In this document: positions 8,373 through 48,713 of the stretch, one piece after another
Numbering within the stretch: the stretch's first letter is position 1
How the letters are laid out: every line of letters starts with the position of its first letter
Assembly (NCBI GenBank): GCA_016906335.1
Contig: JADEYG010000003.1
Location: forward strand, 1-64,000
Length of the DNA stretch: 64,000 nucleotides
Source of the DNA: Novakomyces olei
Lineage: Eukaryota
Direction: 5' to 3'
Notes under the pieces: model-generated
Seen by the model: the letters and a program-made list of their open reading frames with translations, nothing else
What the model was told of the DNA's origin: nothing
Databases searched by the model: none
Made by a program: the position numbers and the translations under genes

Positions 8373-8381
8373 ACGTGTAAT
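8373..8381 (-). promoter_or_regulatory. Self-priming PBS (ATTACACGT), complementary to ACGTGTAAT in the LTR (8510-8518)
   Basis: 9-nt complementarity, 2 nt from the LTR end; the partner lies about 30 nt downstream of the TATA box, as in Tf1-type elements. Confidence 0.75.
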
Positions 8382-8383
8382 AC

Positions 8384-9925: not shown

Positions 9926-9960
9926 GGAATTTCGCCATAATTCCGTCTTGAATATATCTA
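9926..9960. mobile_element. Copy E: 35-bp terminus-only copy (hairpin plus end)
   Basis: GGAATTTCGCCATAATTCCGTCTTGAATATATCTA, an exact tandem duplicate of the end of copy D. Confidence 0.75.
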
Positions 9961-9980
9961 GACTAACCCTAACTAACCCT
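9961..9980. repeat. Internal telomeric tract GACTAACCCTAACTAACCCT at the base of the element stack
   Basis: Two telomere units in the same orientation as the terminal telomere, directly abutting copy E. Confidence 0.85.
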
Positions 9981-10597
9981 TTACTAGTTTTTACCGTTTT
10001 CCATTAAATTATCTTCTAAATCTTATATATGTTGATTCATACGCGTTTTGTAGACTGGATTCAGTCACTAGTTATGTGTTGGCTAGTAATAGATTGACTC
10101 TGTTGGAAGATGAATTTGTTATCCTCTCATACTACTTTTGTTTATGTCGTTTTCTCCAATTTGTGAATACTTTTAACCTCATTCATATTCCTATTAATCT
10201 CTAGCACTTCTCAAAATGTTCTCTATTTTTTACAAGTGCGGATTCAATACATTAAAATGTCAAGGTTATGTGATCACTATGTACCAAAAAGCGGCAAATC
10301 CTTCACTTACCGTCAAATACAATGCACACTTAATGCTTTTACGCACTCTAATATAACTTCACCGTACAATCTCAATTCGTTAGAGCCCCAGAACCCAAAA
10401 AAATAGTATATGAAGAATCATCGTTTTCATCGTTAGTATGAAAGCGCTAGTATACGTCTACGTACAAAAATCGGACCCCTAAATACTCATACGTTATGGG
10501 CATAAAGCGAGCCTGTGGCCAAATAAGCCAAAAATTATGTCCGCCTGAATAAAACATGAATTCATTAGATATCTTTAACTATTTCACGACAGGCTTT

Positions 10598-12391: not shown

Positions 12392-14133
12392 CTAAGCTGC
12401 TTGCTGATCAAATGTACGTCTCGAGATACCGAGCCAACATTCGTCCGGCTTTTTCGAAAACCCTTCGTGCGACTCCAGAGTTTTCTGGTACAGCTCGAAT
12501 TTGTATCGGTGAAAGGCTGTTGCAATAATGAGCGACAGCTCCATGCGAGCGACATTTTGACCTACACAAGCGCGCGGTCCAAAGCTAAAGGGGTTGAAGC
12601 AAATCTTTTGTCTAGAGGTCAAGGCTCCCGGAAGCCATCGATCGGGCTTGAACTCCTCTACATCGGCACCCCACACATTTGCATCATGATGAATTGTGTA
12701 GCTGGGGACGGACAACACTGTTCCCGTCTTGAACTCCCATTCACCGTACGTAATACCCTTTGGAGCGGTCACTGTTCGCGGAAGGCCGAGCGCCGATGTG
12801 GAGTGCAGCCTCATGCCCTCGTCAATACAGCACCGGAGAAAGGGCAGATTCTTGACTTGCTCAAAGGAAGCAATTTCCGCCTCGGGCGGGATCGCGCTGT
12901 CGAGTTCCGCATACAGTCGAGGCAGGATTGTGCCCGGTGCGGCTCGTTCTCCGTGAAGAATCCAGTAAAAAATAGCGCATGAAGTGTTGGAGACCGTATC
13001 GCTTCCAGCAATAAGCTGCGTCAGCGCCTCAGACACGAGCTCATCGTACGGCATTGGTTGGCCTTTGCCGTCTCGTGCATCCAACAGCATTTGCAAGATA
13101 TCGTTTCGAGCGGCGACTTCGCTTCCAGTGGCGAGTCTGCGTGCTGCTGCTACACTCGCTATTCCGTGCAATGCGCCCACAGACTGAAGGCCCTTGGTGA
13201 AAAAAGGATCAGGCAAATATTTCGCGATTGGCCGAAGTGCCGGAAGCCAGCCCAGAGTAGAGCTGACTTCGCCTCGCCGATTCAAGGTTTCCGCGCCTGG
13301 CGAAAAAGTGACAGGCCCGTCTGGGCTCGTGCGGGACTCACACTCGTCCTTGGCCTTATCAACCATACCAAACGGTGCACCAAAAGCCAAATCGCCAATC
13401 ACGTCGAACGCGAGAAAAGTGCACCAGGGCATCATATTCATTTTCGCTGGGCTGGTGGATGTTGAGCGAGCGGCAATTTTGTCAAGCTGCCGCACCCAGC
13501 GGTGCAGGTTTTCCGCCATATGGTCCTCAAACGCATGGACTGAGCCGGGCGAAAACGCATGCGCAATAATTTTGCGCTTTCGCGTGTGCTCCGCACGGTT
13601 TCGAACATTAAATACCCCAGGAACTCCCGACACAAAGGCTTCGTAGTACGTGCTGTTTGCATTAGTGAATTGCCCAATAAAAAACCAAGACAGAGATGAG
13701 AGATTGAAATAAATAGTATCAAAAAGACCATTTTCATATGTGTTTGCTTTTCAAAACTATTCTCTCTCTCCTTTATATATATAATTTGGTTCAATTGGTT
13801 TTTCAAGCGTCAAGTCTAATAGTTTACATACTCTTTCAAAAAGCCATTGCCGTGCGCGTAAACGGCTTGGAGACCTTCTGGTTCAGCAATTGAAACATGG
13901 TTGTACCCAATGCGCACGATTGGACCGTAAACCCCGTGAGCCCAATGAACCCAAGCAAACTTTTTGCCGAGTCTGGCCGCAAGCGCAATCCAGATGTTGC
14001 TGATTTTCGCCAGTGGTGGTCCCGGTACGCGCTGCAAGTCCGAGTATGTTGTAAAGTAGGGCACAAGGTAATATTGCAGTGTCCAAAGCAGGCCAATTGC
14101 GGCAGCAAATCTCCAGTCGTTTATGAGAGCCAT
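12392..14133 (-). CDS. Cytochrome P450, CYP53 (benzoate 4-hydroxylase)-like, 1 intron
   Basis: FNVRNRAEHTRKRKIIAHAFS, AGSDT I-helix, EGMR (ExxR), FSFGPRACVG heme motif; intron about 13652-13830. Confidence 0.88.
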
Positions 14134-15686
14134 TGGGTCTGCTGGCGTAAACAAATTCGAATACTCTGGGCCACATTATATCCTTCTCGTAGGTCCCCCC
14201 ACTTTTGGTGCTCTCCATTATTGGCTGCCGAGACCCGTCGCCTGGTCGATACAAAAATGGGGTAGCTTTATTATTACGACTTTTGCGAGGTTTTCTTTAT
14301 CAGTGGTCGGATTGTTTTGGTAATTTTATTTGTTCCGCAAAAGCTTTGGAGAGCCACTTTATCACATTTGCGGAGATAAGAGATTTCATAGAAAACACGT
14401 TTAGCGCTAAAAGCGATAAGCGTTTGTGGATATATTATATATATATATATATATATAGATAGATAGACAAGGTACTAATAATTTGAATAAAACAAGTAGA
14501 TTTGTCTGCCAGTTCACATCAATTTAATGTAATTAAAGTCTTTCTATTCTGATGCCATTTACCTGGTTTGGAAATTTAAGAGATCAAGTGAGATCTCGCT
14601 CGGTGCATTTAACTTTTCGAATGCAAAGAGCAATTTATATAGACAATTTTAGTCATACGCGGTTTCGTCTCGTTCGACTGATCCTATTGAGGCCGCTCAT
14701 TAGTAATGCCTATTGAACGCTGAGCACGTAGCCAGCGATGTAATATAGTCTTTATCCTGGCCAAAGCTTCTAGCATAGGCTGAGAGATTCATGATTTTAC
14801 ATCCAAGGAAGCGTATAGCATATTAGTAGGATCTTGGTACGGTATATACATGGCCATGTGGGGTTATTCCGCAGGAGGGTACAAATTCTATTTTAAACCA
14901 TCGAGCTGTCTGCGCTATTTCAACATTATGTGCCAGTGCAGCGTTCTTTGTAGAAGACCTAAATTAACACCGATCTTTGTAAATGTCGTTGAGATACGCT
15001 CTCGTGCAACTGCAAGTGTATTTGGCGGAAGTTTCTATTGCAAAGACATCTTTGCGAATCCTAAACGCACTTTTGCTTGACTGGAATTGGTATTTTTCTA
15101 CCTGGGCTTTGTTTGGATGCAAAAGTGTTTGCGCGTTTGAAAGACCGTCTATGGCGATAAAACATGACTCTTTTTGTCCTGTTTTGTTTCCTGCAACTAA
15201 TTAATAGTAATCATTTGGTGCTGAAATCGTTATTTTTCATTTCTGGCGTCGATGATAATTGCCTTTTTTAACGTAGCTATTGGTCATACTTGCTTTGTTG
15301 TCATAAATATTTAGAGACGTAAAATCCCAGTTTGAAGCTCAGTCCCAAAAACCGCGCCATAACACACTGCTGGAAATGACACTGTAACGATAATGGATCT
15401 AGTTTTTCACAGACGGGCACTTGCTCGAACCATTACGTTAACGCAATATTTTCCATTTTCCTCCCGCTTACAGTCTATTAGTTTGTTGACCGTTTGGAAG
15501 AGTATTTCAGATAATGAAAACGCTAAATATAAAATTAGATACATGTATTGAACGCTAAATGGCTTTAACTGTCTTCTATTCAGCCTGATGGGCTACCTGC
15601 ACAGGCTGTCCAGTACCGCAAGGCTCCTAGAAAATTACGATGACTGGGCCCGAAAGATCAAGGCCTGTCTGGGGCGCCTTGTAATG

Positions 15687-25410: not shown

Positions 25411-26521
25411 CTAGAAGCGTCGAGCAACGCTGCCTGGCGGTGCTGGCATGGCGGCACCAGCAGGAGGTTTGTTTTTCTTTTTAAACTCGTCACACATTTG
25501 CTCAAAAGTAACCCACTCAACTCCCTCGTGTTTGTTGATATACTCAATGATCCTACAATACGGCAAGTTAACACAATTCTAAATACAAAAGTATGGATTC
25601 CCTGCCACTACCATACGTACCTTTCATGCATAAGAATGACGTGTGGTCGCCCAGACACATCTGGATGAATGGTCATGGGGAAAATGAACTCGTCAAATTC
25701 GCGATAAAAGTAATCGAAATGATCCTATCGCAAGTTAGTCCCGAATAAACCTTTGTCTGCAGTAACGCCAACCTTCCAAATATCTTCAATGTCGCGAGGA
25801 TTGACCCATCCATGACTGTTGGGCGCACCCTTGATAAACATCATTGGCGGCAGATCGTCAATGTACCAGCTGCCAGGGATCTCTACAAGCCCAGTATCGT
25901 GGCCCCTTACCAAAGGCTTCATCCAAGTCTGTGCCTTTTGCGTATAGTCGATCTTTGTCCAGGTATCGCCCGTCCTGAGCCAGTACATTTGACAGTCTTC
26001 ATGAGACATGGAATGATCATACTCGATCCCATACTCGAGCAGCATGTCCGCCATTTCAGCGCTCGTCTCCCACCATGGCGCTACTATGCCCCGCGGAGGC
26101 TTCCCACAAAAATCCTTGAGCATATGATACGTCTTGTCCATTATATCGAGCAACTGCTCTTTCGAGAGACTCGAAGGATTCTCGTGCGAGTAACCGTGCA
26201 GACCAATTTCGTGACCGGCATCGCGGACCATTGCGCATTCTTGGGGAAACGTTTCCAGGGAATGTCCGGGGATAAACCAGGAGGCTTTGATATTGTATTT
26301 TTCAAAGAGTTTGAGTACACGCGGCGTTCCCACATGTCCTGCCCAGAGACCTTTAAAAATAAAACAAAAACATCAGTTTAGTATAGAACGACACACGTTT
26401 AACGGTTTGCGATACCTCGACTTATATCGCTCACGCTGTCTTCGCCGCCGTAAGACCCAAGCCAACCAGAGACGGCATCAATGTCAACACCATAGCCCAC
26501 GAGTACCCGCTTTTTGCCCAT
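25411..26521 (-). CDS. hxnM: CE4/polysaccharide-deacetylase-family cyclic imide hydrolase (HpPgdA/PuuE-like)
   Basis: [26 protein letters not shown] and [11 protein letters not shown] motifs; 3 introns. Symbol from cluster context. Confidence 0.8.
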
Positions 26522-28978: not shown

Positions 28979-31792
28979 ATGAGCCATGCTTGCGTGTTCC
29001 CCGGCTGCGGCAGACTTTTTTCCCGGGCAGAGCATCTGCGACGGCACGCATTGAATCACGAGAAGCCGCGAGACGGGTATACGTGTGAACGGTGCTTTGT
29101 TCATTTCCAGCGACCAGATCTTTTAGGTGAGTTCCGCGTCCTTACCGCCTCTCCCCCCACTATTGTAACTTTTATTGGCAAACAAGTCGGCAAACAAGAA
29201 ATATTCTTACAATTTACAATTTTTACTATTATTCATTAGTTAATTTAATTCTTTCTCCCCCACTCCCATTTTTACTCCTTTTATTCGTTTGTTATTAGTG
29301 GCCAAAAGTGGGGTTACTAATGTTCAAGCTCGACATACGCAGCGACACACGCAACGTGACGCAGAAGCTGGAGGCCCCGGGCAGGGCACTTTAAAGACGC
29401 GAAAACGAACACGCCGAGCGGAGGATGGGAATATTATCGTGCGACCTTCGCAGCGGCAGGTCAGATCTGCCAAGCACAAGTCTCAGCCGATCAGCAATTG
29501 CCCTAGCATGAACGAGATGAGTGATGACACGGCGCGGCATAGCGGGACGCCTGCCAATTCGCAGCAGGATGTGCACCATATGCCGCTCTCGCCGCCCGGA
29601 TCCAGCGCGGAATCATCGTCCATGTCCATTATTGATGACACAGATCCTTTGTTAGCGCCGATAATGCCTGCAAATCCGTTTGAGCCCTATGCGGAACCCA
29701 TGCCTGGACAGTTTGACGCGGCAGACGGGTCGTTTAATATAGATTTGAACGGCACAGGCGATCTTTTCGGCATGGATACAGGTATTGGATTTTCGTTTTA
29801 TTTTTAATTATTTTTATTTTTATTTTTATTGTTTTTAATTTTGTTTTAATTTTGTTTTTTGTTTTCTTTTTTACTTTACGTGACTTGTGTCAAATACAAC
29901 CATGCTAATGTTTACAAGCGACGGATTTTAATTTACCCTTTGCTGCCACTTTTAATTACAACTGGCTGTTTGATGTCTCCTCGCTCGACGATGCTTTTGA
30001 CCACTTTGATTTTTCAGTGGGATTTGACACGGTCCCGGCTCTGGACGTTCCTGAATCGTGTGGCGTGCAACAGCAGCGCATTGAAAAATTTGATGCGCCA
30101 TCAGCCCTGTTGGAGATAGCGTCTACGACGTACAAGGGAGATGTGCCACGAGGCATGTCTGTACCCTTGGCTTCGGCTATACCAGACCTTGACTGGGTTT
30201 CCGGCTCGAATATCCTTGATACTAGCAATGCCTCACACTTACCGAGGATATCGGAGGATGAACGCAAAGGCCTCTTGTCCCTAGTGGCATGGGCACGCCC
30301 CAAGGACTTGGACGGACATCCAATTTCTCTCGATTCTGGGCTGCTAGCATTAACGGCATTACAGGGCTATTGCGATCTCTTTTTCACTCGATTCAACACC
30401 GTATATCCTCTCATTCATCAGCCTACTTTTGACCCGAAGACTGCTGACCCAGTATTTCTTGCTTCTATTGTTTTTATGGGAGCCACATATAGCTCTCGGG
30501 ATGCTCATCAGCTGGCGGTTGAGGTGCATGACGTGCTTCGGAATCAGCTTTTGTGCCACCCAGATTTTTCGCCACAGCCTGATCTTTGGGTTCTGCAGTC
30601 TATGTTACTGATTGATTGTTTCGGGAAGCTGAGAGCGGGTCCCAAGCAGAGAGAGCGAGCACAGCTTTTTCATTGCGTGCTCATTAAGCTTATCAGACGG
30701 AGCAATTGCTGTGCAGTACCGGATATGTCAGGACTACCCAGGTCCGATAACCTGGATCGCGACTGGCGCAATGCCATAGAAGCGGAGCAGAGAAAGAGGG
30801 TGGCTTTTCTTTGTTTCATGTGGGACACACAGCATGCAGTTTTGTTTTCACAGTCGCTCTGTATGTCTGCTTTTGAGATCAGATCTGCCCTGCCTTGTAG
30901 CGCTGCCGCTTGGGAGGCTACTTCGTCTCGGGAATGGAAGCATTATGCGTTTAGCGAGACAAACAAACCCTTCCTGTCGGTACTAAAAGGCTACATATCA
31001 CCGACTGCAATGGCACGAGTCAAGGATTTAAATGTTTTTGCCCGAATGGTTGTTTTCCATGGACTCATGTCAGTCTCTGCGGATCTCAAACGTCGCGATC
31101 AAACCACACTACGATCGGAAACGCCGGAGCGTGTTGGCGTATGGACACCGCGCATGCGACGGTCGTATGATCTGTGGAAAGTCGACTTTGACTCTGCCAT
31201 TTTGGCCATCAAGCTAGCTCAAGCTGCGAGTATGAAGCAGTTTACCGCTTTAAAGATGTCTGCGCATGCGCTCTACCATGCGGCAACGATTGCCCTCAAT
31301 GTTGAGGTACTGGATTTGCAAATAGTTGCTGGTGCTTCACATATACTGGGCCGTGCTGTTACAGACAGGGACAGGGAGAGGTCGGCCCTATGTATCAAGA
31401 AATGGCTTGAGCAGGACTTGGACGGTCCGTCTCTCATTGCGCGCCAGGCCTCTTTCTTTCTGCAGGATGCGGTCATGAGTTTCCATGATTGGGATCAGAC
31501 AGACTCCTTCCATTTCCCTTGGTGCCTGTATCTCTCTACTCTAGTATGCTTGGTTTTCTACCAAGGGCTGGATGATTCTCGCAATGACTCTCGCTCTGAT
31601 TCTCGAACAACGACTGATCTTTCGTCTCTAGTTGCAATGATGATAAATTGCTCAAACACAAATCAGCGGACGTCGGTCCTGGCAAGGTATGATTTCAGAC
31701 CTCTTGCTGCTGCAATTTCAAAGGAATTGGCAACCGTGCGCTGGTCCGTGGTACACGATGCAATGAAGGTGCTGGTACGGCTGTCTTTGTGA
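28979..31792 (+). CDS. hxnR: C2H2 zinc-finger plus fungal-specific TF domain transcription factor
   Basis: CVFPGC..FSRAEHLRRH and CERC..FQRPDLL-RH fingers; FNTVYPLIHQPTF middle-homology region; 2 introns. Symbol from cluster context. Confidence 0.78.
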
Positions 31793-37793: not shown

Positions 37794-39520
37794 AGTAGAG
37801 TATATATACATATTTACATAAACGCATTTGTTGGGTTGATGGTCGATTCGCATGCTTCGTTCGTTAATTGAAAAAGTACTAAACTACACGAGTATACAGG
37901 CAAATGCTATAGTATCGCTCATTCGCCGTCCTTTCGCATCATTATAGACAACGTGTACACTCGTCTGCGATTTCTAAGCCTCTTCTCCTTGGCACCCGTT
38001 GTCTTTAGCTCCTGTAAGGATTGTATACTCTCCCACATTCCCGCTTGCAACAGCGGCCACAAGACTCCGCATGCCGGTTTCATAGCAACAGCTTTCATGC
38101 TTTAATTATTTTAGTCGGTGTGACAAAAATATTGGACACAGCATCGAGTGTTGTCGGTATTGTTTTCCTCTTAGACCTCGCAGCCTTGTACTGCTACGAT
38201 CAAACTGTTGGAAAAAGATACAATTTACAAACATTTTGAGCTGCAAAATTCGTCAATAATCATAATTTCGTTACATCTTCCCAACCAAGTCCGATTACCG
38301 CTCAGGCTTCAAATAACCTCACCGTTAAATGCTTTGCTTCGAGGTGGAGACTGGCATTTGAGAAAGAATTGCTACTTTGCTTATTGACGTATTAGTCCTA
38401 ACCTGTATCGTACGTATCATCCATTAGAATATATCTAAAAAGGCATATCTTTTGGTTAAATTCGCGATATATAAATGTACCTACGTGCAATGGATCTGCA
38501 CATACTAACTATTATTTAAATGAAATTAGCAAATACGATAAGCTTTAAGAGAAACCATTAGGATTACTAATTACTCTTGAGCATTGGAAATATATATATA
38601 TAAGCAATCTTATTCTAAAACAGGCTTATCAGTGGTGCGTCAAATTTATTGTCTATACAAGTTTGCCTTTTGTTGAAATTGTTTGTCATGTAACTCAACA
38701 TTTCTCAACTCTGAACAAACACGTTTTTGCGAATGTATACACGATCTACTCGGTGCCTATTTTTGTACCAAGTTTTACGAAATTTCACGAGCTGATTGTT
38801 GAAAATGAATTGTTGTTCAAGGCCATAGCTTTGTTCTCAGATATCTGTGACAATTCTACGTTTTCCGAGAGATTAGTCGAAAAGTACTGAGAACAGGGTA
38901 AGCGGTCGCCCAGAGAGTCACAAATTTATTCAACAAATTGCTTTGAGCCCAGCTTATTCCACTGCTACAAGAGGCTTTCTAACAAAGGCTCAAAGTTTGG
39001 GCAGAAGGCAATTTGGAAGAATTTTGATCGGGAGATACGCATCGTTTATGGAATCGCGGGGAATAGCTGAATTGGATTGACGTAGCATTCATTTACAGGT
39101 ACCGAGGCGCCGCTCACTGTACTTGAGTACTGTCCTTTCTAATGCTTCGAGTAGAGCATTTGACTAGTTTTTGTGCTGATTTCTTCTAGGATTTATAGGC
39201 TTAGGGTCTGCTTGGTTTTCACATTGGTCGACTTACGGTAGGGCATTTAGGACTTCTATTTTGTATTAGATTATATTTCAGAATTAAATTAGGTTTGCTT
39301 GCATCTTCAAAACGCGCGACACTAGATACTCTATCACAATAGCAATAGAAATATTGCATAATGGCTGCTCAAGCGTTGGATGATAAGTAAGGCGCTAATC
39401 GTAAGTCCTTATGCATTGTTAACGGGCGACAATGATACATCAGACCAGAATTTTCCCTAAATTCTGCACATACAAATATACAGAGTCAATTAACTAAGCG
39501 CCTTTTATCAAGCACAATGC

Positions 39521-41682
39521 TTAAACCTGAACTCCGGAGAGCGTGCGCTGATTGCTTACAACAAAGTCGTTCTTTTCGTCATCCAGGCCATCATGCAATT
39601 TGATATCGTCTTCCGCCCTCTCTTCGGGGTCCGAATAAATAACTTGCAGTTTTAGGGTTCTCTTATCATGCCACCAGACTACCCCAATCCATACGGCCAA
39701 GCAAATGCTTACAACAATCATCGTTATTGTTCCTTTACGGAATCCCTTTATTGTAAGCCATTAAATCAAATTCAACCTGACATACAGTAGCTGCATCCGT
39801 AGCAGGGTAAAGGGCAACTCCCCAAAATGCGTAGAGAACCGAAGAAGCGCCTTTAGCAGTTAGAAGTGTAATATTGGCGAAAAATTAAATTTAATTCCTA
39901 ACCGTTCATTGAATAAAGTGTGACAGCCCGTGCTGCATCATCGCCGGACCGGGACAAAATATGGCTCGCCCATGTGAATACAACAGGCTGAATTAAGTAT
40001 GCGGTTCCCGCTAAATCTGGAGGCTCAGTAACTTATCTTCAGCTTTTTGTCTACTTACAGTAAGCAGCCATTATTCCATGGCTACCGACTGAGTTCCAGC
40101 ATAGGAGTACAATACTTGCAACGATCTGCACCATGCAAGCAAAGAGACCGTAAGGACTAATAAAGCCAGTAGCATCTATTGCAACCGAACTACAGAGAGT
40201 CACCACGATACCTTTTTATGTTAGTCTTTAGCCAATACAGAGACTAAAAAAGAAAGACAAATGGTGTAAAGAACCAAAAGAAAATCTAACCAATAGCAGT
40301 GATTCCAAGAGGGTAAGTGTTGTTTTCCGGAACAGAAAACAGCCCTGAAGCTCGCATCCATAGCACCATGCATGTCTGCGTAGAATAGGCCTCTAAAGCA
40401 CCACCAAGCATCCAAAAAATGTTGAAAATCCAGCTGAAAGTTTAGCGATCTGTTAAAAAGAAAAAGCATTACAAATTCGGGGTGAACAAAACACGCTTTA
40501 TAAGCGAAAATCCAATGTTATGTCCATCAGACTGCTTAGGAGGTAAGCGCTTAAGTGCGAGTTCTTTCTCTTGCGGCTTAAGATAGAACGCTTTTGTTGT
40601 TTCGGGAAGATCTGGGAAGAATACAAAACCAAAAATAGCTACAGGAATAGTGATTATTCCATCAATGAAAAATGACTGTTTGTTAGAATATTTTTCTGAT
40701 ATATCATTTTTTAATCTCGTTTTCTCATCATTTCTTTTTGGTTTGTTTATTCTGTTTCCTTTTTATGAAAGCCACATACCCATCTCCAACCAGGCAAGCC
40801 GTTTACACCATCCATTGTTTTCCAAATGGCCGTCATCATAATTCCTGAATTTAGCAATTGTATAGCAATCTGTTTCTATTACCAGCAAACATTGTGCCCA
40901 CCATACCCGATGCTTGGAAAAGGCCAATTCGCTTTCCAGCCTCCGAGCCTTTGTACCAGCTTCCAATGATATACTGAGTTCCACTATAAGTCGAAGCCTC
41001 GGCAATTCCTTGCAAGAACCTAACTGCGGCCAAGCTGGAAAACGAATGACATCCACCACAAGCCATCGTTAATCCAGACCAGACGAGGGTCATCAATGGA
41101 AACCAATACCGAGGAGGCACTTTCTGAATAATTATGGCATGAGGTGCTTGGCCCACAATGTCTGTCATGTGAGCAAATGCTTACGAGAGCAATAACATGA
41201 TATCAAATGCAGAGGCGAGTTAATAAAGAACAAAAAGTAGACCCAAATGTCCGGTAGAAATTTTAATTAGAGCAAAACAAATAAAGAACTTACATCCGAC
41301 TGAAAGGCACGTGACAAGTAGATTATACTCATTGCCAGTGAGGTTAATACTTTCTCGCATGCCTGAAACATAAGCATTTGCGAGAACCGCACGGTCTGAA
41401 ATATTAGTCTCATATAATTTATACATACGACCATTACCTAAATAATTGAAAAAGAAGGCAACACAGCAATAAGTCTGTGCTGTTAGTGAAATTGATCTCG
41501 CTTGTGTTTATACCAAGATGAAAAAGTCAATTTTTTGAAGAAGCTAATATGTCAGCATAAATTTGAGATTAATAGATTTCAGTCCATTATCTGGAGCTAA
41601 TATAACATACTCTGCGTTCCTCCTCAGTATCTGGTGCTTCTCCCCAAATCGCAGTGCGCAATTTGTGTAATCTTGCGCCCAT
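39521..41682 (-). CDS. MFS anion:cation symporter (pantothenate/allantoate permease family), highly spliced
   Basis: KIDFFIL, DRAVLANAYVSGMRE, RFLQGIAEA, GSWYKGSEAGKR, FIDGIITIP and FPDLPE motifs. Confidence 0.82.
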
Positions 41683-42294
41683 GATCAATTATCTTGATTT
41701 GACAGGAAAGTCAATATAGCAAATGGATAAATTCCAACACTAGATCAGACCCTAATGACCACCAGATGGCTCTTAGATAAAACCAAACTTCAGTAGGCGC
41801 GAAGGAACATAAAATTGTGATGCGATAATCAGGAGCGAGATCTTGCGCTTTTGAATTAACTTATCTCTCATAATTCAGCGCTTGACCCCACATGGTCAGG
41901 CGACTGATATATTACTAAACCGATTATGAGTTTCATTTGCGGGTTATCCGATCAGACGGAACGTTATGATTACTAGATCGAGAAAAGAGCTGCAAAAATT
42001 TTGTAATTAAATGGTGATATATCGGGTTATCCGATCGAGCTCTAGAGGTCTATTCAAAAAAACTATCGACACACTTTAGCGAAAATGCCGTGTGCCTTTC
42101 CCAGTAGAGCTCGCTTCAGACCCCGAGTTTTGTCCCATCTTAGGCAATCACTCTCTTTACTACTTTGTCAATATAGCTGATAGGGTTTAAATGCTTACGT
42201 TTATTTACACATACGCTCTACCTGTAGCTTTCTTTCTTTTTTTTATCGAGTGGCTAACAAGAATTCAATTGTGAAACAGAGCATTTGCTTGAAG

Positions 42295-43567
42295 ATGCCT
42301 GCATGTGCTATTTTACGTGACCGGACTGCCATTGACCTCGCAGGCCTACAGACAGAGCAGTCTAACGCAAACACTTCGAATATTGACGAGCAGTCAACTC
42401 TTCAATTGTGTAGTACGGTTCTTAATTTCCTAAATGTATTACTAACAGCAACAGAAACGATAAATGAGGAGGATACCACTGTAGCGGCTGCCGTTAAGAT
42501 GTGCTTGCCTCAAATAGCATCAGCTGTGGATATCATTGTTCCACGTATTTTGTCCGGAGGCCGGGTTATATATATAGGAGCTGGTACTAGCGGCAGGTAA
42601 GTTTAAATTTCTTTCCAGTTGCTAATTACAGGCTTGGAATTTTGGACGCTTCAGAAATGTAAACTTATTTTGCTTTTAGCTATATAATTTTTTAGTTTGT
42701 GTATCGGAAGCAAGCTCTAACCAACCTACAGTCCCCCTACTTTTTCTGCACCCCCATCTCAATTTGTGGGTCTAATTGCTGGTGGAGATCATGCTATTCG
42801 AAACGCTGTTGAAGGAGCCGAAGACTCGCAGGAAGCAGCCGTTTCTGATCTGGCTTCTATGGATGTTTGCAGACACGATGTGCTTGTCGGAATCGCATCT
42901 TCTGGGCGTACCCCTTACGTTATTGGCGGCCTGAAATATGCACAATCTATTAGAGCTGCTACAATTGGCCTGGCCTGTGTTAAGCCTAGTGCGCTTTCGA
43001 AGTTTTCCGACATTGTTATAGAGTGTGTTACTGGCCCGGAGGTAGTAACGGGTAGCACTCGCCTCAAAGCTGGGACTGCCACCAAAATGGTAATTATCGC
43101 TTCAGCGCAATATTTTTGAGATGTTCTTCTTTTCTTTTACTGATACCATTAACTGTGCTAATCTTCAGATACTAAATATGATATCGACTGCGTCTCAAAT
43201 TCGTGTTGGAAAAACCTACGGCAATTTGGTAAGTTCATATTATGATGCGAAAGTCCGAGTGAGAGCCTGATCCAGCCTAGTATTCAGGATTTACTTCTAT
43301 GTTTTAATGAATGAGAGCTTATTATAGATGGTGGATCTGAAAATGTCAAATGAAAAGCTGCGTCATAGAGCGAGACGTGTCGTCCGTGCAATCGTACCCG
43401 ACAATCTATGCAAAGACAGAGAAGTGGACGAAATCGTCGCTAAATGTGATGGCCAAGTTAAGCTCAGTATTATCGTGGCTAAACTAGGGTGTTCGCCAGA
43501 GGAGGGAAGAAAAGCACTCGAAGCGTGCTCCGGATCTCTTAGACATGCTCTTGCCTTGCATCAATAA
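42295..43567 (+). CDS. murQ: N-acetylmuramic acid 6-phosphate etherase (SIS/glucokinase-regulator family)
   Basis: LQTEQSN, GAGTSGRLGILDASE, IAGGDHA, SSGRTPYV, GPEVVTGSTRLKAGTATK, GKTYGNLMVD and SNEKL motifs; spliceosomal introns. Confidence 0.85.
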
Positions 43568-44082
43568 AAAGCATTTAGAACATTTATAGCTTTTATCTCG
43601 AGAATGCTGACTCCATATATAATTTTTCAATATGTATAGCGTTCCGGTATCTCCATAATCACTAGATCCAGAATACTACCCGACCAAGGAATGTCCCGAT
43701 AGTGGGCTCCAATAGGTTATTCGTGACCTGCGTTTGCGATTACTTGATGGGGTATTGGAAAAGGATACGAACTCGGTAGCGATAATATCCGAAAATTGAC
43801 GGAACAGTCCATCGTCGGATAACCCGATACTACACAAGCCGAATGCTACAATCTTAAAAGTGAAAAAAAAAAAATGTAGGGCCACACTGACGTTTTGACA
43901 GCTCTTATCTTTTTGTTTTTAATTTGCGCTTAATGCAAGCTTTCTTTTTTAATTTTGACACCCTCTGATGGCCCTGGATTGACGAGTTGTACGCGAAATT
44001 ATTCGTTTAAATTACCGGTTTGCGCTACCAAATTGACTCTGATGCATCTCTCTCAAATCTGACTGTACTGAGTGCGCTGAGC

Positions 44083-45555
44083 ATGGTCACGTTAAATGTT
44101 TTGGGTTTAAATGGGGGAACAAGCGTTGACGGTAAGCTTTGGTTTGTCCCGTTTTTTTCTTGCCACAAGACACATCGCTAATCTTTCTAGGGGTTGACGT
44201 CGCTCATTGTCGCATTTCATCTGTTGCCAATTCTAACGATGTAAGCGTCGAGCTCGTATCTTACTCTGAAGTGGATATCAGTCCGGAATTGCGATCCCAG
44301 GTACTTCGCTTATGTAATCCTGCACAAGAGGGTGGTCAGACTACAATGGCCGAGGTTTGCGATCTAAATTTTGCACTTGGGAGAGAATTTGCTCGTGCAG
44401 TTAAAGAATCAGGAGTTGATTTAGACCAAATCGACCTTGTTGCTAGTCACGGGCAAACTTTGTGGCATCAGCCAGTTGGTGAAACTCGTTCTACATTACA
44501 GATGGCTGAGCCAGCTGTGATTGCTCAAAAGACAAAAAAGTAGGGCGAAAATTTTACGAATGTCTACTAAATAAAGAACGGTAGTTAGCGGATTTCGTGT
44601 AGCCGAATTAGCTGCGGGGCGACAGGGGGCACCATTATCAGGATTTTTCGAAGCTGCGCTTTTATTAGATCCAAATGTTACCAGAATCGGCCAAAACATT
44701 GGAGGTATTGGTATGTGCAAATTGGAGAACGATTCAGTTTCCGATTCCTCATTTTAATCTTTTTTAATATCTGTGCTAACAGCTTTAGGTAATGCCTCTG
44801 TAATACCCTCGGAGAAATCGATAAAATTGAACGGTCTTTGCGCGAGCTACTTTGCTTTTGATACCGGACCTGGAAATGTATTTATAGACGCCTCTATGCG
44901 TCTTTTAGTCGGAAAACATTTTGACAAAGACGGAGCATTTGGAGCAGAAGGCGAGGCTGAAATTGACCAAGATCTGGTGAATGAGTACCTGGAAGCAGAA
45001 CCTTATTTCCTGCTGAAACCTCCAAAGACAACGGGCCGTGAGCTTTTCTCTGACGACGTTGCGCGTTCTTTAGTTGCGCGAATGAAGTCAACTGGAAAAT
45101 CTACGGCTGCTATAATAGCTACAATTACGCGTATAACCTCAGAATCAATTGCAAGGGCTTATGAACAGTTTGTCGTGCCACAGCTAGGCCCCAACGGCGC
45201 TATCGACGAAATATACATCTGTGGAGGGGGAGCCTATAATCCTAATATTTTGAAGCATTTACAGAAACGATTTCCAGACAGCAAGGTCCTCAAACTTGAT
45301 CAAGCTCCAAACAGCCTTGAGCCAAGTGCAAAAGAGGCGGTTTTGTTTGCTGTTCTGGGATTTTTATGCATATGTGGCCGTACTGTGCCTTTAGCCGCTG
45401 GGTCAGAAAGTACTGAACCGGCTGTGTTGGGCGTTGTTACACCGGCAGAAAACTATCGGAAAATGATGCAAGCCGTGGTTGAAGACGACGATGAGTTTTC
45501 CAGAAAAGGTGTACTGGGGCGCATTATAATGGAACAGAATAAAATGAGAACATGA
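44083..45555 (+). CDS. anmK: Anhydro-N-acetylmuramic acid kinase family (AnmK/levoglucosan kinase)
   Basis: [56 protein letters not shown] and AKEA motifs; 3 introns. Confidence 0.85.
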
Positions 45556-46367
45556 GTACAGAAAAGTACGATATTCCAGTAATCTATGAAAGAAATCAAG
45601 TTTTTATAGTTTTTGAACAGTGACAAACTCAATTTCAATGTCAGGATTATTTATTTTTACAGCGCCCATTAAGCTTACAAATCGTTAGAAAACTTGCTCG
45701 CCGAAATGGAATTGGAAAGCGTCTAGTAATGACAAATCTTCAGCTTAATCAATTTCAATGAAGGTAAATCGCGAAATTCTGTCGGTTTATGTAAGTATGT
45801 TTAAAAACTCACAATCCCGGCCAATAGAAGTCACTGATACTTGACGTAGTATTAATCAATTAAATACCTTCGCAGTATGAATTATGCAGACTACTCGTTG
45901 CTTTGGAGTATTTTTAACATCGAGCGCCGTTAGCAGGTGATTCAATAATCGCTCGCGGAGTTAGAAGACTGGAGTTGCGATAGTAATAATTTTAATTTTA
46001 TACTAATTTGCCTGGCTCTAGTAACAGGATTCATATACACACTTTAGAAAGCAAAGAATGGGGGCAATCATAAGGGAGATTGCAAGGCAAAGCGAGACTC
46101 CGTTGTCAAAAGTACGCTTTTACCCTTTTAGGCAAAAAGAAGAAATGCTTATTTGCGTAACACATAAGATTTCTCACGAAGCTTGCAGGCATAAAATATT
46201 GCTATGACAATTATATGTAAAGCATACATACAATTAGGGTTAATAAGGCCATTCGATGTTAAAACAATTTAAGCTTGCTCAACCATTTGAAGGTCTCTTT
46301 CATAAATTTTTGAAATGTTAATAATTAGAATGTAAATTTTGAACTGCTAATTATCGTTCAGAATAAA

Positions 46368-46745
46368 TCATATTTTGAGTGCCTCTTCAATTGCGGAATT
46401 TCCTGCTGCGATAACGGTGAGGGCTTCTTTTCGGACCGCGTCACCAACATCGTCAGGATCGGCTTGACTCTATTCCACGCGTCAGTCTGGAAATAAATAG
46501 CAGTTTACCAGTGTATTTTCTAGCAGACCAAAAGATGCGCGTAATCGATTAATTGTGTCAGGCACAGCCTTTTCATGATCGTGCAAAACATCGATTTGGT
46601 GATTCACTTCGTGTTCGTCTTCCCCAGCTTCCCTTCGACTTTGCACGCGCTCGCGCGCAGCTTCGATATCTCGTAAAGTCACATGCAGATCCTTTGTGAG
46701 TCGGCGCACGCTGCCTGTTTGTATCTGCAACTCACGCAACGACAT
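46368..46745 (-). CDS. Tubulin-binding cofactor A (Rbl2/Alp31), 1 intron
   Basis: LRELQIQTGSVRRLTKD ... VPDTINRL pattern; second exon SQADPD...ALKI*. Confidence 0.75.
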
Positions 46746-47296
46746 TGTAAATTGTCATATAAAACGATGGAGAATATGAACATCGAACTTTTCGTGTTTA
46801 TTAAGAGCTTACTTTAAAACAGTTATATTAAAGATTAGACGCGATTCGACGCAATTATTAAAATGTCTTGTAATTTATTGTAGCATATTTACATTAGGCG
46901 AAAATATGTTTTGATATCGCAGACGAAATAAATATTTGACTAACCCTAACTAACCCTAGATCCGTTGAATTCTAATTGAATAAGACTTCTAATTGATTTC
47001 TTGGGCTCCCTACAAGCTCTAGTTGGAATTTTCGAAAACAAATTTAGGCCTTTATTTGAGGACGAGGGCTCAGTCAATAAAAAAAAGGAGCAATCAAAAG
47101 TAAATTATAGTCTTGCATAAAATTGCGTAATCGAGAGAATTGGACAGTACTTTACTTCGATAATTATCAAATACTAGACACTCAAATTATTGCAATATCA
47201 AATCAAGTTCACATTTTATTCGTATCTCTTTCTGTTCCCTCAGCTGCCTATTAAACCTTCGGCATACGCATTATACCCTTCTTCATTAGAAAAATC

Positions 47297-48235
47297 TCAT
47301 ACTAAAGTACTCGCACTGGAAAGATTAATACCGCGGGTACCCATTTTTCTGTCTCTAATTCTGGTCCAAACATCAACAATCTCCTGTCTTTCTTCGCGAG
47401 AAAGTTCGAATTTCAAGTCTGTAACGATTTTGATACCTTCGTCGCTAAAGACAAAATTCTGTCTGGTCTCTTGGTTACCATCTTCCCGGACATCACCAGC
47501 CTTGATGCTATTGGCCTTGGCACTTTTCTTCTCTATATTTGCTCCCTTGGAATTGCCCTTCTCTTTTGCAGTTGTCGCAACGACCCAGTAGCTTGGATAT
47601 CGTCTTTGAATATTATTGACTAATAGGGAAACACCGAGCATCAGGATAGAGGATAGCATAACAACTGGAATATAATACCACCCGAGATCGGTTACATCAT
47701 CTTGAGTGGCAGCAATTAGTGCCGTTCCTCCCGCCGGAGGATGAATACATTGCGTAACAGCCATTATGACGTTTGCCGTAGAGCAAGACAAAGCTCCTAC
47801 GAGCCAACGATGCTCTATAAATCGATGCTGATTTGTACGCCAGAGCTTTGTTATAATTACTCCCGTAATTGATGATAACGTATGCCCCATGAAAACCGAC
47901 CGCGGTTGCGCAAATGGCACCTGTAACGTGCCAAATACCAAAACAGCGGAAGCCCCAAACGACCCAACTATCATTGGACCACCACGGCGTATGAAGTAGC
48001 TATCGTAACCAAAAACTGCTTCGATCGTAGCAACGCCGGCAAATGTGCCAATCCATAACCACAGCCAAACTAAAGCATCACAGACTGGTTTCTGCTGGGC
48101 CTTTCGATATCCAAGCCAGTAAGAAATTGGGTAAGGAATCCGATGCAGGAAACTTTCAGGAGTTATTCGGGAGATGTAGTCGTCGATATTGAAGTTTCCA
48201 GATATTTGCCGTTGTTCTTTATTTTGTCCGTCCAT
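47297..48235 (-). CDS. HPP-family membrane protein
   Basis: SFGASAVLVFG, PFAQPR, GH and IHPPAGGTA motifs. Confidence 0.85.
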   Translation of the reverse strand: MDGQNKEQRQISGNFNIDDYISRITPESFLHRIPYPISYWLGYRKAQQKPVCDALVWLWLWIGTFAGVATIEAVFGYDSYFIRRGGPMIVGSFGASAVLVFGTLQVPFAQPRSVFMGHTLSSITGVIITKLWRTNQHRFIEHRWLVGALSCSTANVIMAVTQCIHPPAGGTALIAATQDDVTDLGWYYIPVVMLSSILMLGVSLLVNNIQRRYPSYWVVATTAKEKGNSKGANIEKKSAKANSIKAGDVREDGNQETRQNFVFSDEGIKIVTDLKFELSREERQEIVDVWTRIRDRKMGTRGINLSSASTLV

Positions 48236-48713
48236 CAAACTACACCTGCATAGTATTTGTAACGCAAAAAGTTTTGGGAATAATGCGAACCGCAAAACGG
48301 ACGTGCAATCAATTCTTGTTTGTGACAGAGGCGCCCTGAAATCGCATTTAACGCAGCATAACGACCGCGGCGAATAGTAATAATAATCAAAAAAGCTTGA
48401 GACTTGGTTATATTGGTGTACCTTTTAAAATATATCTTTTCTTGTTCCTATCCTATAAGTACTTCGCTACTTAACTAACCTATCTTAACCATAACTAACC
48501 CTATATATTTCAAGCATGAATATTCAATTCCCCACATAAATAGAAGTCTGAAATGCCAAATATCGCGACGCTTATAATATAAACACATACTCTGAAACAT
48601 GGCGTTCAATAAAATGTTCAAACAATATATTAATACTCTGCATCCTGAAAATCCGCTTACTAGAGAACAAGTGCTAGCACGGATTTTCGGACTTTTACGG
48701 CGAAAAGCTCCAT

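What the first reader, a model, noticed from the sequence alone, without database searches (positions are those of the whole stretch)
39521..45555. Fungal MFS-murQ-anmK module: candidate pathway for scavenging bacterial peptidoglycan sugar
Seen: intron-containing murQ-like and anmK-like genes in tandem, with a divergently transcribed anion-type MFS permease. Established: in bacteria AnmK converts 1,6-anhydro-MurNAc to MurNAc-6-P and MurQ cleaves that to GlcNAc-6-P plus D-lactate; the characterised fungal AnmK homologue is levoglucosan kinase, which needs no etherase. Inference: import and salvage of anhydro-MurNAc into amino-sugar/chitin metabolism by a eukaryote with no peptidoglycan, with the MFS as a candidate (anh)MurNAc transporter.
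Basis: partly seen in the sequence, partly recalled or inferred. Interest (0 to 1): 0.72.

Follow-up and report, generated by a model that had tools for sequence, protein, structure and literature searches.

The report
Fungal MurNAc uptake and breakdown cluster
A fungus carries, side by side, a transporter and two enzymes that bacteria use to recycle their cell-wall sugar MurNAc, which suggests that some fungi feed on bacterial wall debris, although no enzyme of the set has been tested at the bench.

Summary
Window 39521-45555 holds three intact, intron-bearing fungal genes. They are an ACS-type (anion:cation symporter) MFS permease on the minus strand, a divergently transcribed MurQ etherase homologue, and an AnmK/LGK-family anhydro-sugar kinase in tandem behind it.

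Close orthologues of all three lie next to each other, or are merged into one gene model, in at least 14 named fungal species. All three also occur on one distant eukaryote-like metagenome contig.

The MurQ keeps both catalytic Glu motifs. A full-length orthologue passes NCBI's MurQ equivalog cut-off. The kinase is not an orthologue of the characterised Lipomyces levoglucosan kinase. It sits in a sister fungal clade that contains every MurQ-linked kinase found, and it keeps bacterial-AnmK residues in the hairpin that gates the anhMurNAc site.

An exact 11-mer, CGGATAACCCG (CGG-N5-CCG), occurs three times in the 64 kb, against 0.01 expected. There is one copy about 260 nt upstream of each of the three start codons, which points to co-regulation.

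Best reading, at about 0.55: import of (anhydro)MurNAc and its conversion to GlcNAc-6-P plus D-lactate. Substrates are inferred, not shown. Fungal use of peptidoglycan has been speculated in print. My ten full-text searches found no description of this cluster, its transporter or its promoter motif. I rate it a new variant of a known pathway.

The parts
39521..41682 (-). ACS-family (anion:cation symporter) MFS permease gene: 12 exons, 11 introns of 38-132 nt, 495 aa. Exons: 41682-41611, 41543-41514, 41474-41438, 41395-41294, 41161-40883, 40844-40780, 40675-40473, 40433-40291, 40211-40059, 40016-39903, 39850-39786, 39745-39521.
   Evidence: Pfam MFS_1 2.8e-14. tblastn shows it collinear with orthologues over residues 1-480. 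The model was aligned to 7 orthologues and one acceptor was corrected from that alignment. It is 70-77% identical to ascomycete orthologues over the full length. Orthologues are named 'pantothenate transporter liz1 / ACS family' by their sources. The DgoT residues D46, R47, R126 and E133 align with D, R, R and E in orthologue P0249, and the window has the same motifs.
41683..42294 (.). Divergent MFS/murQ promoter region (612 nt) with two copies of the motif.
   Evidence: Exact 11-mer hits at 41940-41950 and 42023-42033, both on the - strand. They lie 258 nt from the MFS start codon and 262 nt from the murQ start codon.
41940..41950 (-). CGGATAACCCG motif, copy 1 (CGG-N5-CCG, the kind of site bound by Zn2Cys6 factors).
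   Evidence: 3 exact hits in 64 kb against 0.01 expected; 0 of 100 shuffles reached 3.
42023..42033 (-). CGGATAACCCG motif, copy 2. It sits inside a 15-nt stretch whose exact reverse complement is at 43815-43829.
   Evidence: inverted repeat I15, 15 nt, 100% complementary.
42295..43567 (+). murQ homologue (N-acetylmuramate-6-phosphate etherase type): 6 exons, 314 aa. Exons: 42295-42412, 42455-42596, 42632-42658 (a 27-nt micro-exon), 42732-43089, 43169-43228, 43328-43567.
   Evidence: Pfam SIS/GKRP_SIS_N. The model aligns end to end with fungal and planctomycete MurQ. Exon 4 alone scores 169 bits against a cut-off of 168 for NF003915. It aligns without gaps to H. influenzae MurQ 4lzj residues 91-209. 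It is 61-71% identical to fungal MurQ and 50-53% to planctomycete MurQ.
43568..44082 (.). murQ-kinase spacer, which is the kinase promoter (515 nt).
   Evidence: The murQ stop codon is at 43565-43567 and the kinase ATG at 44083. Motif copy 3 lies inside this spacer.
43816..43826 (+). CGGATAACCCG motif, copy 3, 257 nt upstream of the kinase ATG.
44083..45555 (+). AnmK/LGK-family 1,6-anhydro-sugar kinase gene (fungal 'clade B'): 4 exons, 432 aa. Exons: 44083-44131, 44191-44539, 44577-44710, 44789-45555.
   Evidence: Pfam PF03702 on three exons. The model was aligned to 8 fungal proteins. It is 66-73% identical to MurQ-linked orthologues and 41-43% to LGK-type proteins. Trees.

Best explanation
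This is a three-gene, co-regulated fungal catabolic module for the bacterial cell-wall sugar N-acetylmuramic acid, most likely in its 1,6-anhydro form.

Proposed steps:
1. The ACS-family H+/organic-anion symporter takes up the carboxylate sugar (inferred).
2. The AnmK-family kinase opens the 1,6-anhydro ring with water and phosphorylates O6, giving MurNAc-6-P (inferred from family, clade and neighbours).
3. The MurQ homologue removes the D-lactyl ether, giving GlcNAc-6-P plus D-lactate (inferred from equivalog-level similarity and conserved catalytic motifs).
4. GlcNAc-6-P enters ordinary amino-sugar metabolism (established pathway knowledge; not checked in this genome).

One transcription factor that recognises CGGATAACCCG probably switches on all three genes (inferred from the motif).

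Shown here: the genes are intact, spliced and conserved as neighbours, and they share a rare promoter motif. Not shown here: any substrate.
For: **1. Conserved neighbourhood.**
- Consecutive locus tags for kinase, MurQ and MFS in Fusarium lateritium (ACHAPJ_006654/55/56).
- Adjacent MurQ and kinase tags in F. nematophilum (ACJ41O_013621/22).
- Adjacent kinase and MFS tags in Malbranchea cinnamomea (VTO42DRAFT_5866/67).
- Kinase and MFS one gene apart in F. oligoseptatum (CEP52_004235/37).
- Four database gene models merge MurQ and kinase in the window's order: P0137, P0145, P0146, P0147 (domain order confirmed for P0137 and P0146).
- A distant eukaryote-like metagenome contig, L001, has all three genes within 5 kb, again with murQ and the MFS gene divergent.

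**2. Co-regulation.** The exact 11-mer occurs 3 times, only in the module's two promoter regions, against 0.01 expected.

**3. MurQ.**
- Orthologue P0131 passes the TIGR00274 equivalog cut-off (352.6 against 302).
- The window's exon 4 alone passes the NF003915 cut-off.
- The motifs that hold the two catalytic Glu residues are kept.

**4. Kinase.**
- It lies in a fungal clade (99 SH-aLRT) with all MurQ-fused and MurQ-adjacent kinases. That clade is separate from the clade (100) of P0113, which scores 698 bits against Lipomyces LGK, compared with 343 bits for the window's orthologue P0002.
- At 20 conserved columns this clade agrees with bacterial AnmK against the LGK clade. The reverse holds at 8 columns.
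- Four of the 20 fall in the 15-residue hairpin 96-110 that gates the anhNAM subsite.

**5. A second fungal kinase partner.** Fungal MurQ forms one clade (99). In two basidiomycetes it is fused to a different sugar kinase, of the BadF/NagK type. This fits a sugar-6-phosphate substrate made next door.

**6. Bacterial precedent.** murQ lies in the stored flank of 37 of 80 mostly bacterial anmK loci.

**7. Transporter.** The residues that DgoT uses for proton coupling and carboxylate binding are conserved.
Against: - No biochemical data exist for any member of this fungal kinase clade with anhMurNAc.
- The fungal kinase orthologue P0004 falls below every NCBIfam AnmK equivalog cut-off. Its best score is 356.2 against 387.
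- It is much closer to levoglucosan kinase than to bacterial AnmK (343-350 against 147 bits).
- The published anhMurNAc contacts (Thr97, Arg129, Asp182, Lys234, Gly237, Arg238) are also kept in levoglucosan kinase, so they do not discriminate.
- 'AnmK'-annotated proteins of Meyerozyma, Scheffersomyces and A. niger gave levoglucosan kinase activity at or just above vector background. The Rhodotorula one was clearly active (PMC9476349, section 14).
- Free anhMurNAc needs prior action of a lytic transglycosylase, a glucosaminidase and an amidase. No such gene lies in the window.
- MurQ was not seen among the 120 listed hits for several species that have the kinase and the MFS (Malbranchea, Lachnellula, Pseudogymnoascus). 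That list was cut off by bacterial hits, so absence is not shown.
Confidence: 0.55

Rival explanations
1. The kinase is a levoglucosan (or other neutral anhydro-sugar) kinase like its Lipomyces relative. The MurQ-like protein and the MFS then act on some other acidic sugar or sugar phosphate, so the cluster serves anhydro-sugar use rather than peptidoglycan use.
For: The nearest characterised protein by sequence is levoglucosan kinase (343-350 bits). Fungal proteins annotated as AnmK can phosphorylate levoglucosan (PMC9476349, abstract and section 14). The kinase is below the AnmK equivalog cut-offs.
Against: Levoglucosan gives glucose-6-P directly and needs no etherase, yet MurQ is the conserved neighbour and is merged with the kinase in 4 database gene models. 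The window's kinase is outside the LGK clade. Its substrate-gating hairpin is AnmK-like rather than LGK-like. A neutral sugar would not call for an anion symporter.
Confidence: 0.17
2. The module recycles the fungus's own wall. The kinase would act on 1,6-anhydro-GlcNAc or anhydro-GlcN released from chitin or chitosan. I recall this as the proposal of Dai et al. 2015 (J Theor Biol 379:59); that paper is not held and I did not read it.
For: PMC10570956 (Discussion passage and reference list) cites that paper for fungal AnmK-like kinases. Fungi have abundant GlcNAc polymers.
Against: anhGlcNAc would give GlcNAc-6-P directly, which leaves the conserved etherase and the anion-type transporter unexplained. 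No fungal enzyme that makes 1,6-anhydro ends on chitin is known to me (recalled). The module is patchy among fungi, unlike chitin.
Confidence: 0.1
3. The substrate is another natural sugar with a 1-carboxyethyl (lactyl) ether or a similar acidic group, for example from bacterial or algal exopolysaccharides, rather than MurNAc itself.
For: The pocket specificity of the fungal MurQ clade has not been tested. That clade is separate from all sampled bacterial MurQ (99 SH-aLRT).
Against: Orthologue P0131 passes the MurQ equivalog model. The window's MurQ is 50-53% identical to planctomycete MurQ over the full length, and exon 4 aligns without gaps to H. influenzae MurQ. The AnmK-type partner fits the bacterial anhMurNAc route.
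Confidence: 0.08
4. The MurQ-like protein is a regulator of the kinase, as GKRP is for glucokinase, and not an enzyme.
For: Vertebrate GKRP derives from MurQ and binds a sugar kinase (bioRxiv 10.64898/2026.05.08.723886, abstract and passages). Some database models merge MurQ and the kinase.
Against: It has a single SIS domain and the bacterial length of about 300 aa, not the doubled GKRP architecture. The catalytic motifs are intact. Non-mammalian GKRPs and the Naegleria homologue are themselves reported to be active etherases (same preprint).
Confidence: 0.04

Closest known systems
Bacterial AnmK-MurQ branch of peptidoglycan recycling (E. coli, Pseudomonas)
   Same: The same two enzyme families in the same logical order. 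murQ often lies next to anmK: 37 of 80 metagenome anmK loci and 11 of 80 species-representative murQ loci.
   Different: The genes here are eukaryotic, with 5 and 3 spliceosomal introns. The kinase belongs to a fungal clade below the AnmK equivalog cut-offs. Uptake would be by an ACS-family MFS, of which 0 of 80 bacterial murQ loci have a homologue; from recall, bacteria use AmpG or the MurP PTS. The purpose would be feeding on foreign wall material, not recycling the cell's own.
Levoglucosan kinase of Lipomyces starkeyi (PDB 4yh5, 4zlu)
   Same: The same fold family, PF03702. It is the nearest solved structure (343-350 bits for orthologue P0002).
   Different: It lies in a different fungal clade. 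LGK-type P0113 scores 698 bits against LGK, and the window is 41-43% identical to that type. The hairpin that gates the sugar site is AnmK-like in the window's clade and altered in the LGK clade. LGK needs no etherase.
Eukaryotic MurQ derivatives: GKRP and the Naegleria gruberi etherase
   Same: MurQ-derived proteins in eukaryotes. The Naegleria protein is reported to be an active etherase, thought to serve digestion of bacterial walls (bioRxiv 10.64898/2026.05.08.723886, passages).
   Different: Those are doubled, GKRP-type proteins of about 600 aa. The fungal protein is a single MurQ unit of 314 aa and is clustered with a kinase and a transporter.
Laterally acquired anmK and murQ in anaerobic ciliates (PMC13198582)
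   Same: Eukaryotes that carry both genes, which the authors interpret as amino-sugar and peptidoglycan degradation (passages).
   Different: That work rests on transcriptomes. No clustering, transporter or regulatory element is described in the passages I saw. The host lineage is different.
ACS / SLC17-type organic-anion symporters (E. coli DgoT; fungal Liz1/Fen2-type pantothenate transporters)
   Same: Best NCBIfam model 2A0114 and nearest structure DgoT. D46, R47, R126 and E133 are conserved. Sources name the orthologues Liz1-like.
   Different: The score is far below the family cut-off (111 against 395 bits). The substrate is unknown. This orthologue group is tied to murQ and the kinase by position.
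MurK-MurQ route for non-anhydro MurNAc (Clostridium, Tannerella; recalled)
   Same: Two basidiomycete proteins, P0155 and P0238, fuse a MurQ of the same fungal clade to a BadF/NagK-type kinase.
   Different: The window uses an AnmK-type kinase as a separate gene.

Membership tests
MurQ, N-acetylmuramate-6-phosphate etherase (TIGR00274 / NF003915) | Single SIS domain plus C-terminal lid, about 300 aa | tested here: met
   Pfam GKRP_SIS_N and SIS on exon 4, and a weak GKRP-like_C match on exon 6. The 314-aa model is collinear with bacterial MurQ.
MurQ, N-acetylmuramate-6-phosphate etherase (TIGR00274 / NF003915) | Score above the curated family cut-off | tested here: met
   The window's exon 4 alone scores 169 against 168 for NF003915. 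Full-length orthologue P0131 scores 352.6 against 302 for the TIGR00274 equivalog. The window's own spliced protein was not submitted, because it is a joined sequence.
MurQ, N-acetylmuramate-6-phosphate etherase (TIGR00274 / NF003915) | Two catalytic glutamates (recalled as E. coli E83 and E114, equal to H. influenzae E89 and E120) | tested here: met
   The micro-exon encodes ..LDASE, directly before the PPTF that aligns to 4lzj residue 91. VEGAED aligns to 4lzj 116-121. The roles of these residues are recalled and come from no call.
MurQ, N-acetylmuramate-6-phosphate etherase (TIGR00274 / NF003915) | Cleaves MurNAc-6-P to GlcNAc-6-P and D-lactate | not testable with these tools
   Needs an enzyme assay.
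AnmK, anhydro-N-acetylmuramic acid kinase (PF03702; NCBIfam NF0071xx equivalogs) | PF03702 domain over the full length | tested here: met
   Three exons match profile positions 24-366 of 367.
AnmK, anhydro-N-acetylmuramic acid kinase (PF03702; NCBIfam NF0071xx equivalogs) | Score above an AnmK equivalog cut-off | tested here: not met
   The best score of orthologue P0004 is 356.2 against 387 (NF007148). All 14 models are below cut-off. The window's last exon alone scores 163.9.
AnmK, anhydro-N-acetylmuramic acid kinase (PF03702; NCBIfam NF0071xx equivalogs) | Catalytic Asp182 and the anhMurNAc/product contacts Thr97, Arg129, Lys234, Gly237, Arg238 (P. aeruginosa numbering) | tested here: met
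   The contacts come from PMC10570956 Table S2. They align with HGQT, FR, FDTGPGN and PPKTTGRE in orthologue P0002, and the window has the same motifs. Levoglucosan kinase has them too.
AnmK, anhydro-N-acetylmuramic acid kinase (PF03702; NCBIfam NF0071xx equivalogs) | Phosphorylates anhMurNAc | not testable with these tools
   Needs an enzyme assay.
Levoglucosan kinase clade (Lipomyces starkeyi type) | Groups with characterised LGK in a tree | tested here: not met
   Two quick ML trees place the window in a separate clade (99) from the clade (100) that holds P0113, which scores 698 bits against LGK. A careful search did not finish.
ACS family of the MFS (TC 2.A.1.14; DgoT-like) | MFS fold, with an ACS model as the best match | tested here: inconclusive
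   MFS_1 on the window's exon. Orthologue P0255 has TIGR00893 (2A0114) as best model at 111 bits, far below the cut-off of 395.
ACS family of the MFS (TC 2.A.1.14; DgoT-like) | DgoT coupling and carboxylate-binding residues D46, R47, R126, E133 (roles recalled) | tested here: met
   They align with D, R, R and E in orthologue P0249. The E133Q mutant chain 6e9o fixes the position of E133. The window has YLDRA at residue 45, VRF at 127 and AEAS at 134.
Fungal metabolic gene cluster | Functionally linked genes kept as neighbours across lineages and co-regulated | tested here: met
   Neighbour evidence in 14 named species plus contig L001. A shared exact 11-mer lies in both promoter regions. Expression itself was not tested.

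The most novel reading that the evidence does not exclude
Many Dikarya fungi have a dedicated pathway, under a single regulator, that imports the bacterial-specific sugar (anhydro)MurNAc through an ACS-family symporter and burns it through an AnmK-type kinase and MurQ. That symporter would be the first eukaryotic MurNAc transporter. The biotechnologically used levoglucosan kinases would then be a derived offshoot of this ancestral fungal anhMurNAc kinase. Muramic acid, widely used as a purely bacterial necromass marker, would be turned over in part by fungi.
Probability: 0.4. Interest if true: 0.75.

Novelty: new variant of a known kind. Interest (0 to 1): 0.6.

Why it matters
If the module works as read, it gives a concrete, testable genetic basis for fungi feeding on bacterial cell-wall debris.

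This bears on four things:
- Fungal-bacterial interactions.
- The fate of muramic acid in soil carbon and nitrogen budgets.
- Gene transfer from bacteria into fungi.
- The natural role of the fungal AnmK/LGK family, which so far is known only from levoglucosan work.

It also names a candidate eukaryotic transporter for MurNAc-type sugars and a candidate cis-element for finding the regulator.

There is a practical point as well. Several database gene models of fungal MurQ skip the 27-nt micro-exon that carries one catalytic Glu. Automated annotation can therefore make these enzymes look dead.

Tried and rejected
- **Own genome.** None is held for this window. Paralogues and the genes for NagA/NagB, lysozymes and D-lactate dehydrogenase could not be looked for.
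- **RNA evidence.** No RNA holder was listed for 39400-45700. Splicing therefore rests on homology alone.
- **Metagenome scan with kinase alignment A1.** The 80 loci kept were only 33-47% identical and mostly prokaryote-like. It gave no broad survey of fungal synteny. Only L001 proved eukaryote-like with all three genes.
- **Genome-contig scan with MurQ alignment A2.** The best bacterial matches were 51-62% identical and spread over many phyla, with Planctomycetota frequent. No donor lineage can be named. In the MurQ tree the fungal clade stands apart from all sampled bacteria.
- **Earlier findings of the scan.** Nothing found by sequence, by words or by place.
- **Substrate call from published contact residues.** Rejected, because all of them are also conserved in levoglucosan kinase.
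- **Motif in L001.** CGGATAACCCG gave 4 hits at up to 2 mismatches against 4.77 expected. The motif is not shown to be conserved beyond the window.
- **Careful IQ-TREE search of the kinase set.** Not finished after 473 s. I report the two quick trees only.
- **Papers not held.** Dai et al. 2015 (PubMed 25979372) and Bacik et al. 2015 (PMC4646320). What I say of them is recalled, or taken from the citing passage in PMC10570956.
- **Literature.** Ten full-text searches found no paper that describes a fungal murQ-anmK-MFS cluster. Subscription journals are largely outside that library.
- **The window's full-length spliced proteins.** They were not sent to the family, structure or large database tools, because they are joined sequences. 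Single exons and database orthologues stood in for them.

Full report
**What is there**

The window is fungal. It holds fungal-specific transcription-factor domains, a Ty3-type retroelement, and genes for P450s and FAD monooxygenases, and its genes have short GT..AG introns.

Stop-to-stop frames in 39521-45555 match three families:
- SIS/GKRP_SIS_N on the + strand (exon 42721-43119: 4.8e-12 and 6.1e-7).
- PF03702 AnmK on three further + strand exons (1.3e-14, 2.8e-8, 1.2e-31).
- MFS_1 on the minus strand (2.8e-14).

I built gene models by coordinates in scripts and checked each against database orthologues.
- **murQ:** 6 exons, 314 aa, introns of 42, 35, 73, 79 and 99 nt.
- **Kinase:** 4 exons, 432 aa, introns of 59, 37 and 78 nt.
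- **MFS permease:** 12 exons, 495 aa. One acceptor was moved from 40011 to 40017 because all seven orthologues read YLAGTAY there. The change was verified.

All three frames are open from ATG to stop and align end to end with their relatives.

The spliceosomal introns rule out bacterial contamination.

**The module is conserved**

Each gene's closest relatives come from the same scattered set of fungi.

| Gene (query) | Identity to top fungal hits |
|---|---|
| Kinase, last exon | 53-69% |
| MurQ, exon 4 | 69-77% (metagenomic and bacterial MurQ follow at up to 69%) |
| MFS, one exon | 71-85% |

Evidence for linkage from the sources' own labels:
- Fusarium lateritium has consecutive locus tags for kinase, MurQ and MFS (ACHAPJ_006654, 55, 56).
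- F. nematophilum has MurQ and kinase adjacent (ACJ41O_013621, 22).
- Malbranchea cinnamomea has kinase and MFS adjacent (VTO42DRAFT_5866, 67).
- F. oligoseptatum has kinase and MFS one gene apart (CEP52_004235, 37).
- Four database models merge MurQ and the kinase into one protein: Talaromyces proteolyticus, F. decemcellulare, Grosmannia clavigera and Paramyrothecium foliicola. I confirmed the domain order, MurQ first, for two of them.
- In nine species, two or three of the proteins come from contigs of identical length: Dactylonectria, Cephalotrichum, T. proteolyticus, Grosmannia, Paramyrothecium, Penicillium riverlandense, Clonostachys rosea, Mariannaea and the basidiomycete Naematelia. This shows the same contig, not adjacency.

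That makes 14 named species with some positional link.

Independently, the eukaryote-like metagenome contig L001 carries all three genes within 5 kb. Its matches are split into several pieces, as expected of genes with introns, and its neighbours include a ferric reductase/NOX and a cupin.
- Kinase at 9434-10735 (+), 47% identical.
- murQ at 12176-11041 (-).
- MFS at 12410-14190 (+).
- murQ and the MFS gene are again divergent, about 205 nt apart.

L001 was the only one of the 80 metagenome loci with an MFS match.

**Co-regulation**

A repeat search found a 15-nt stretch in the MFS/murQ spacer whose exact reverse complement lies in the murQ-kinase spacer (I15).

Its core, CGGATAACCCG, occurs exactly three times in the 64 kb: at 41940-41950, 42023-42033 and 43816-43826. 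The expectation is 0.01, and 0 of 100 shuffles reached 3.

Each copy lies 257-262 nt from one of the three start codons.

Inverted CGG triplets with a fixed spacer are the classical site type of fungal Zn2Cys6 factors (established knowledge). Which factor binds here is unknown.

The motif was not found above chance in L001.

**The etherase**

- Exon 4 aligns without a gap to residues 91-209 of H. influenzae MurQ, 4lzj.
- The exon alone reaches the NF003915 cut-off (169 against 168).
- The full-length orthologue P0131 is 71% identical to the window's protein. It passes the TIGR00274 equivalog model at 352.6 against 302.
- The two catalytic glutamates sit in LDASE and VEGAED, and both are present. 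I recall them as E83 and E114 in E. coli.
- LDASE is encoded by a 27-nt micro-exon between introns of 35 and 73 nt. Three database orthologue models (P0135, P0127, P0154) miss it.
- In a 59-row quick tree all fungal MurQ form one clade of 28 rows (99 SH-aLRT), apart from the bacterial rows.
- That clade includes two basidiomycete proteins in which MurQ is fused to a BadF/NagK-type sugar kinase.

One etherase lineage is thus paired with two unrelated sugar kinases. This argues that its substrate is a sugar 6-phosphate made by the partner.

**The kinase**

| Query | Score against Lipomyces LGK | Score against bacterial AnmK |
|---|---|---|
| P0002, orthologue of the window's kinase | 343-350 bits | 147 bits |
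| P0113, Aspergillus navahoensis | 698 bits | not compared here |

- Two quick maximum-likelihood trees (61 and 45 rows) agree. The LGK-type proteins form one clade (100).
- The window, all four MurQ-merged models and all kinases with MurQ or MFS neighbours form another clade (99). The window sits in a 17-row (or 14-row) subclade at 99.
- A careful search did not finish.
- The window's kinase is 66-73% identical to its own subclade, 51% to Naematelia and Yamadazyma, and 41-43% to LGK-type proteins.
- No fungal kinase passes an AnmK equivalog cut-off. P0004 scores 356.2 and P0113 scores 327.1, both against 387.

The published contacts of P. aeruginosa AnmK with anhMurNAc are conserved in both fungal clades, so they do not tell the substrate (PMC10570956 Table S2).

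A column comparison used 12 LGK-clade rows, 17 and 16 rows of the window's clade, and 9 bacterial rows.
- 86 columns are the same in all groups.
- At 20 columns the window's clade keeps the bacterial state and the LGK clade does not.
- At 8 columns the reverse holds.

Four of the 20 columns correspond to H100, P102, T107 and Q109 of the P. aeruginosa enzyme, by the alignment. They lie in the hairpin 96-110, which that paper says gates the anhNAM subsite (passage). A fifth, P113, follows directly.

The bacterial sample is small, so this is suggestive only.

**The transporter**

- Sources call the orthologues Liz1-like or ACS family.
- The best NCBIfam model is 2A0114, far below its cut-off.
- The nearest structure is the D-galactonate:H+ symporter DgoT.
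- D46, R47, R126 and E133 of DgoT align with identical residues, and the window has the same motifs. The roles of these residues are recalled.
- A proton-coupled carrier of sugar carboxylates fits MurNAc, which carries a lactyl carboxylate.
- None of the 80 bacterial murQ loci has a homologue of this MFS, and 11 of the 80 have anmK nearby. The transporter is therefore a fungal addition.

**What is in print**

- PMC10570956 states that numerous fungi encode levoglucosan and anhydroMur kinases, and mentions speculation that fungi could recycle bacterial peptidoglycan. It cites Dai et al. 2015, which is not held (passage).
- PMC9476349 reports levoglucosan kinase activity of 10.65 U/mg for the Rhodotorula protein. 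Five other fungal proteins gave 1.67-2.98 U/mg, against 1.25 for the empty vector (section 14).
- Eukaryotic precedents are the Naegleria GKRP-type etherase (bioRxiv 10.64898/2026.05.08.723886, passages) and laterally acquired anmK and murQ in ciliates (PMC13198582, passages).
- Ten searches found no description of the fungal three-gene cluster.

**Verdict**

It is a new variant of a known bacterial pathway: eukaryotic genes, a distinct kinase clade, a new transporter partner and a candidate regulon motif.

The module lies about 40 kb from what looks like a chromosome end. That setting fits a patchy, niche-specific trait.

Noticed in passing
window 1-116: The window starts with 11.6 copies of a 10-nt unit, CTAACTAACC (97% matches). 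This looks like a chromosome end with a non-canonical 10-nt telomere repeat (TTAGGG plus TTAG on the other strand).
   Followed up: partly
window 200-905, 2849-3491, 4666-4904: Arrays of a 15-nt satellite (ACCATACATTATTAT and variants) lie in an AT-rich stretch (GC 29-34%) with strongly negative GC skew.
   Followed up: no
window 5632-8408 (-): A Ty3/gypsy-type retroelement with long open frames: gag with zinc knuckle (329 aa), and protease, RT and RNase H (625 aa).
   Followed up: no
window 8686-37793: A run of genes typical of a secondary-metabolite or aromatic-catabolism cluster: OrsD-like, NAD epimerase, P450, three FAD monooxygenases, an MFS, a polysaccharide deacetylase (25725-26372, -), a 2OG-Fe(II) oxygenase, a Zn2Cys6-type factor (29909-31792, +), a phenol hydroxylase, an SDR and an OYE flavin reductase. 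No link to the module was found.
   Followed up: no
window 42632-42658: This 27-nt micro-exon of murQ encodes the stretch with one catalytic Glu and is flanked by introns of 35 and 73 nt. Database models of orthologues P0135, P0127 and P0154 lack it, probably through annotation error.
   Followed up: partly
L001 9434-14190: A distant eukaryote-like metagenome contig carries the same three genes in a different orientation: kinase +, murQ -, MFS +. murQ and the MFS gene are divergent, about 205 nt apart.
   Followed up: partly
P0155 (Macrolepiota), P0238 (Leucocoprinus): Basidiomycete proteins fuse a MurQ of the fungal clade to a BadF/NagK-type kinase. This suggests a second fungal route, through non-anhydro MurNAc.
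   Followed up: partly
L008, L010, L012: Uninterrupted kinase frames of 412-515 aa on metagenome contigs (one contig of 577 kb) group with the fungal LGK-type clade rather than with bacterial AnmK. Whether these contigs are bacterial or fungal was not checked.
   Followed up: no
window 46482-46754 (-) and 47297-48424 (-): The right-hand neighbours of the module are a small frame of 90 aa (by eye like tubulin cofactor A; not scanned) and an HPP-family membrane protein. Neither shows a link to the module.
   Followed up: no
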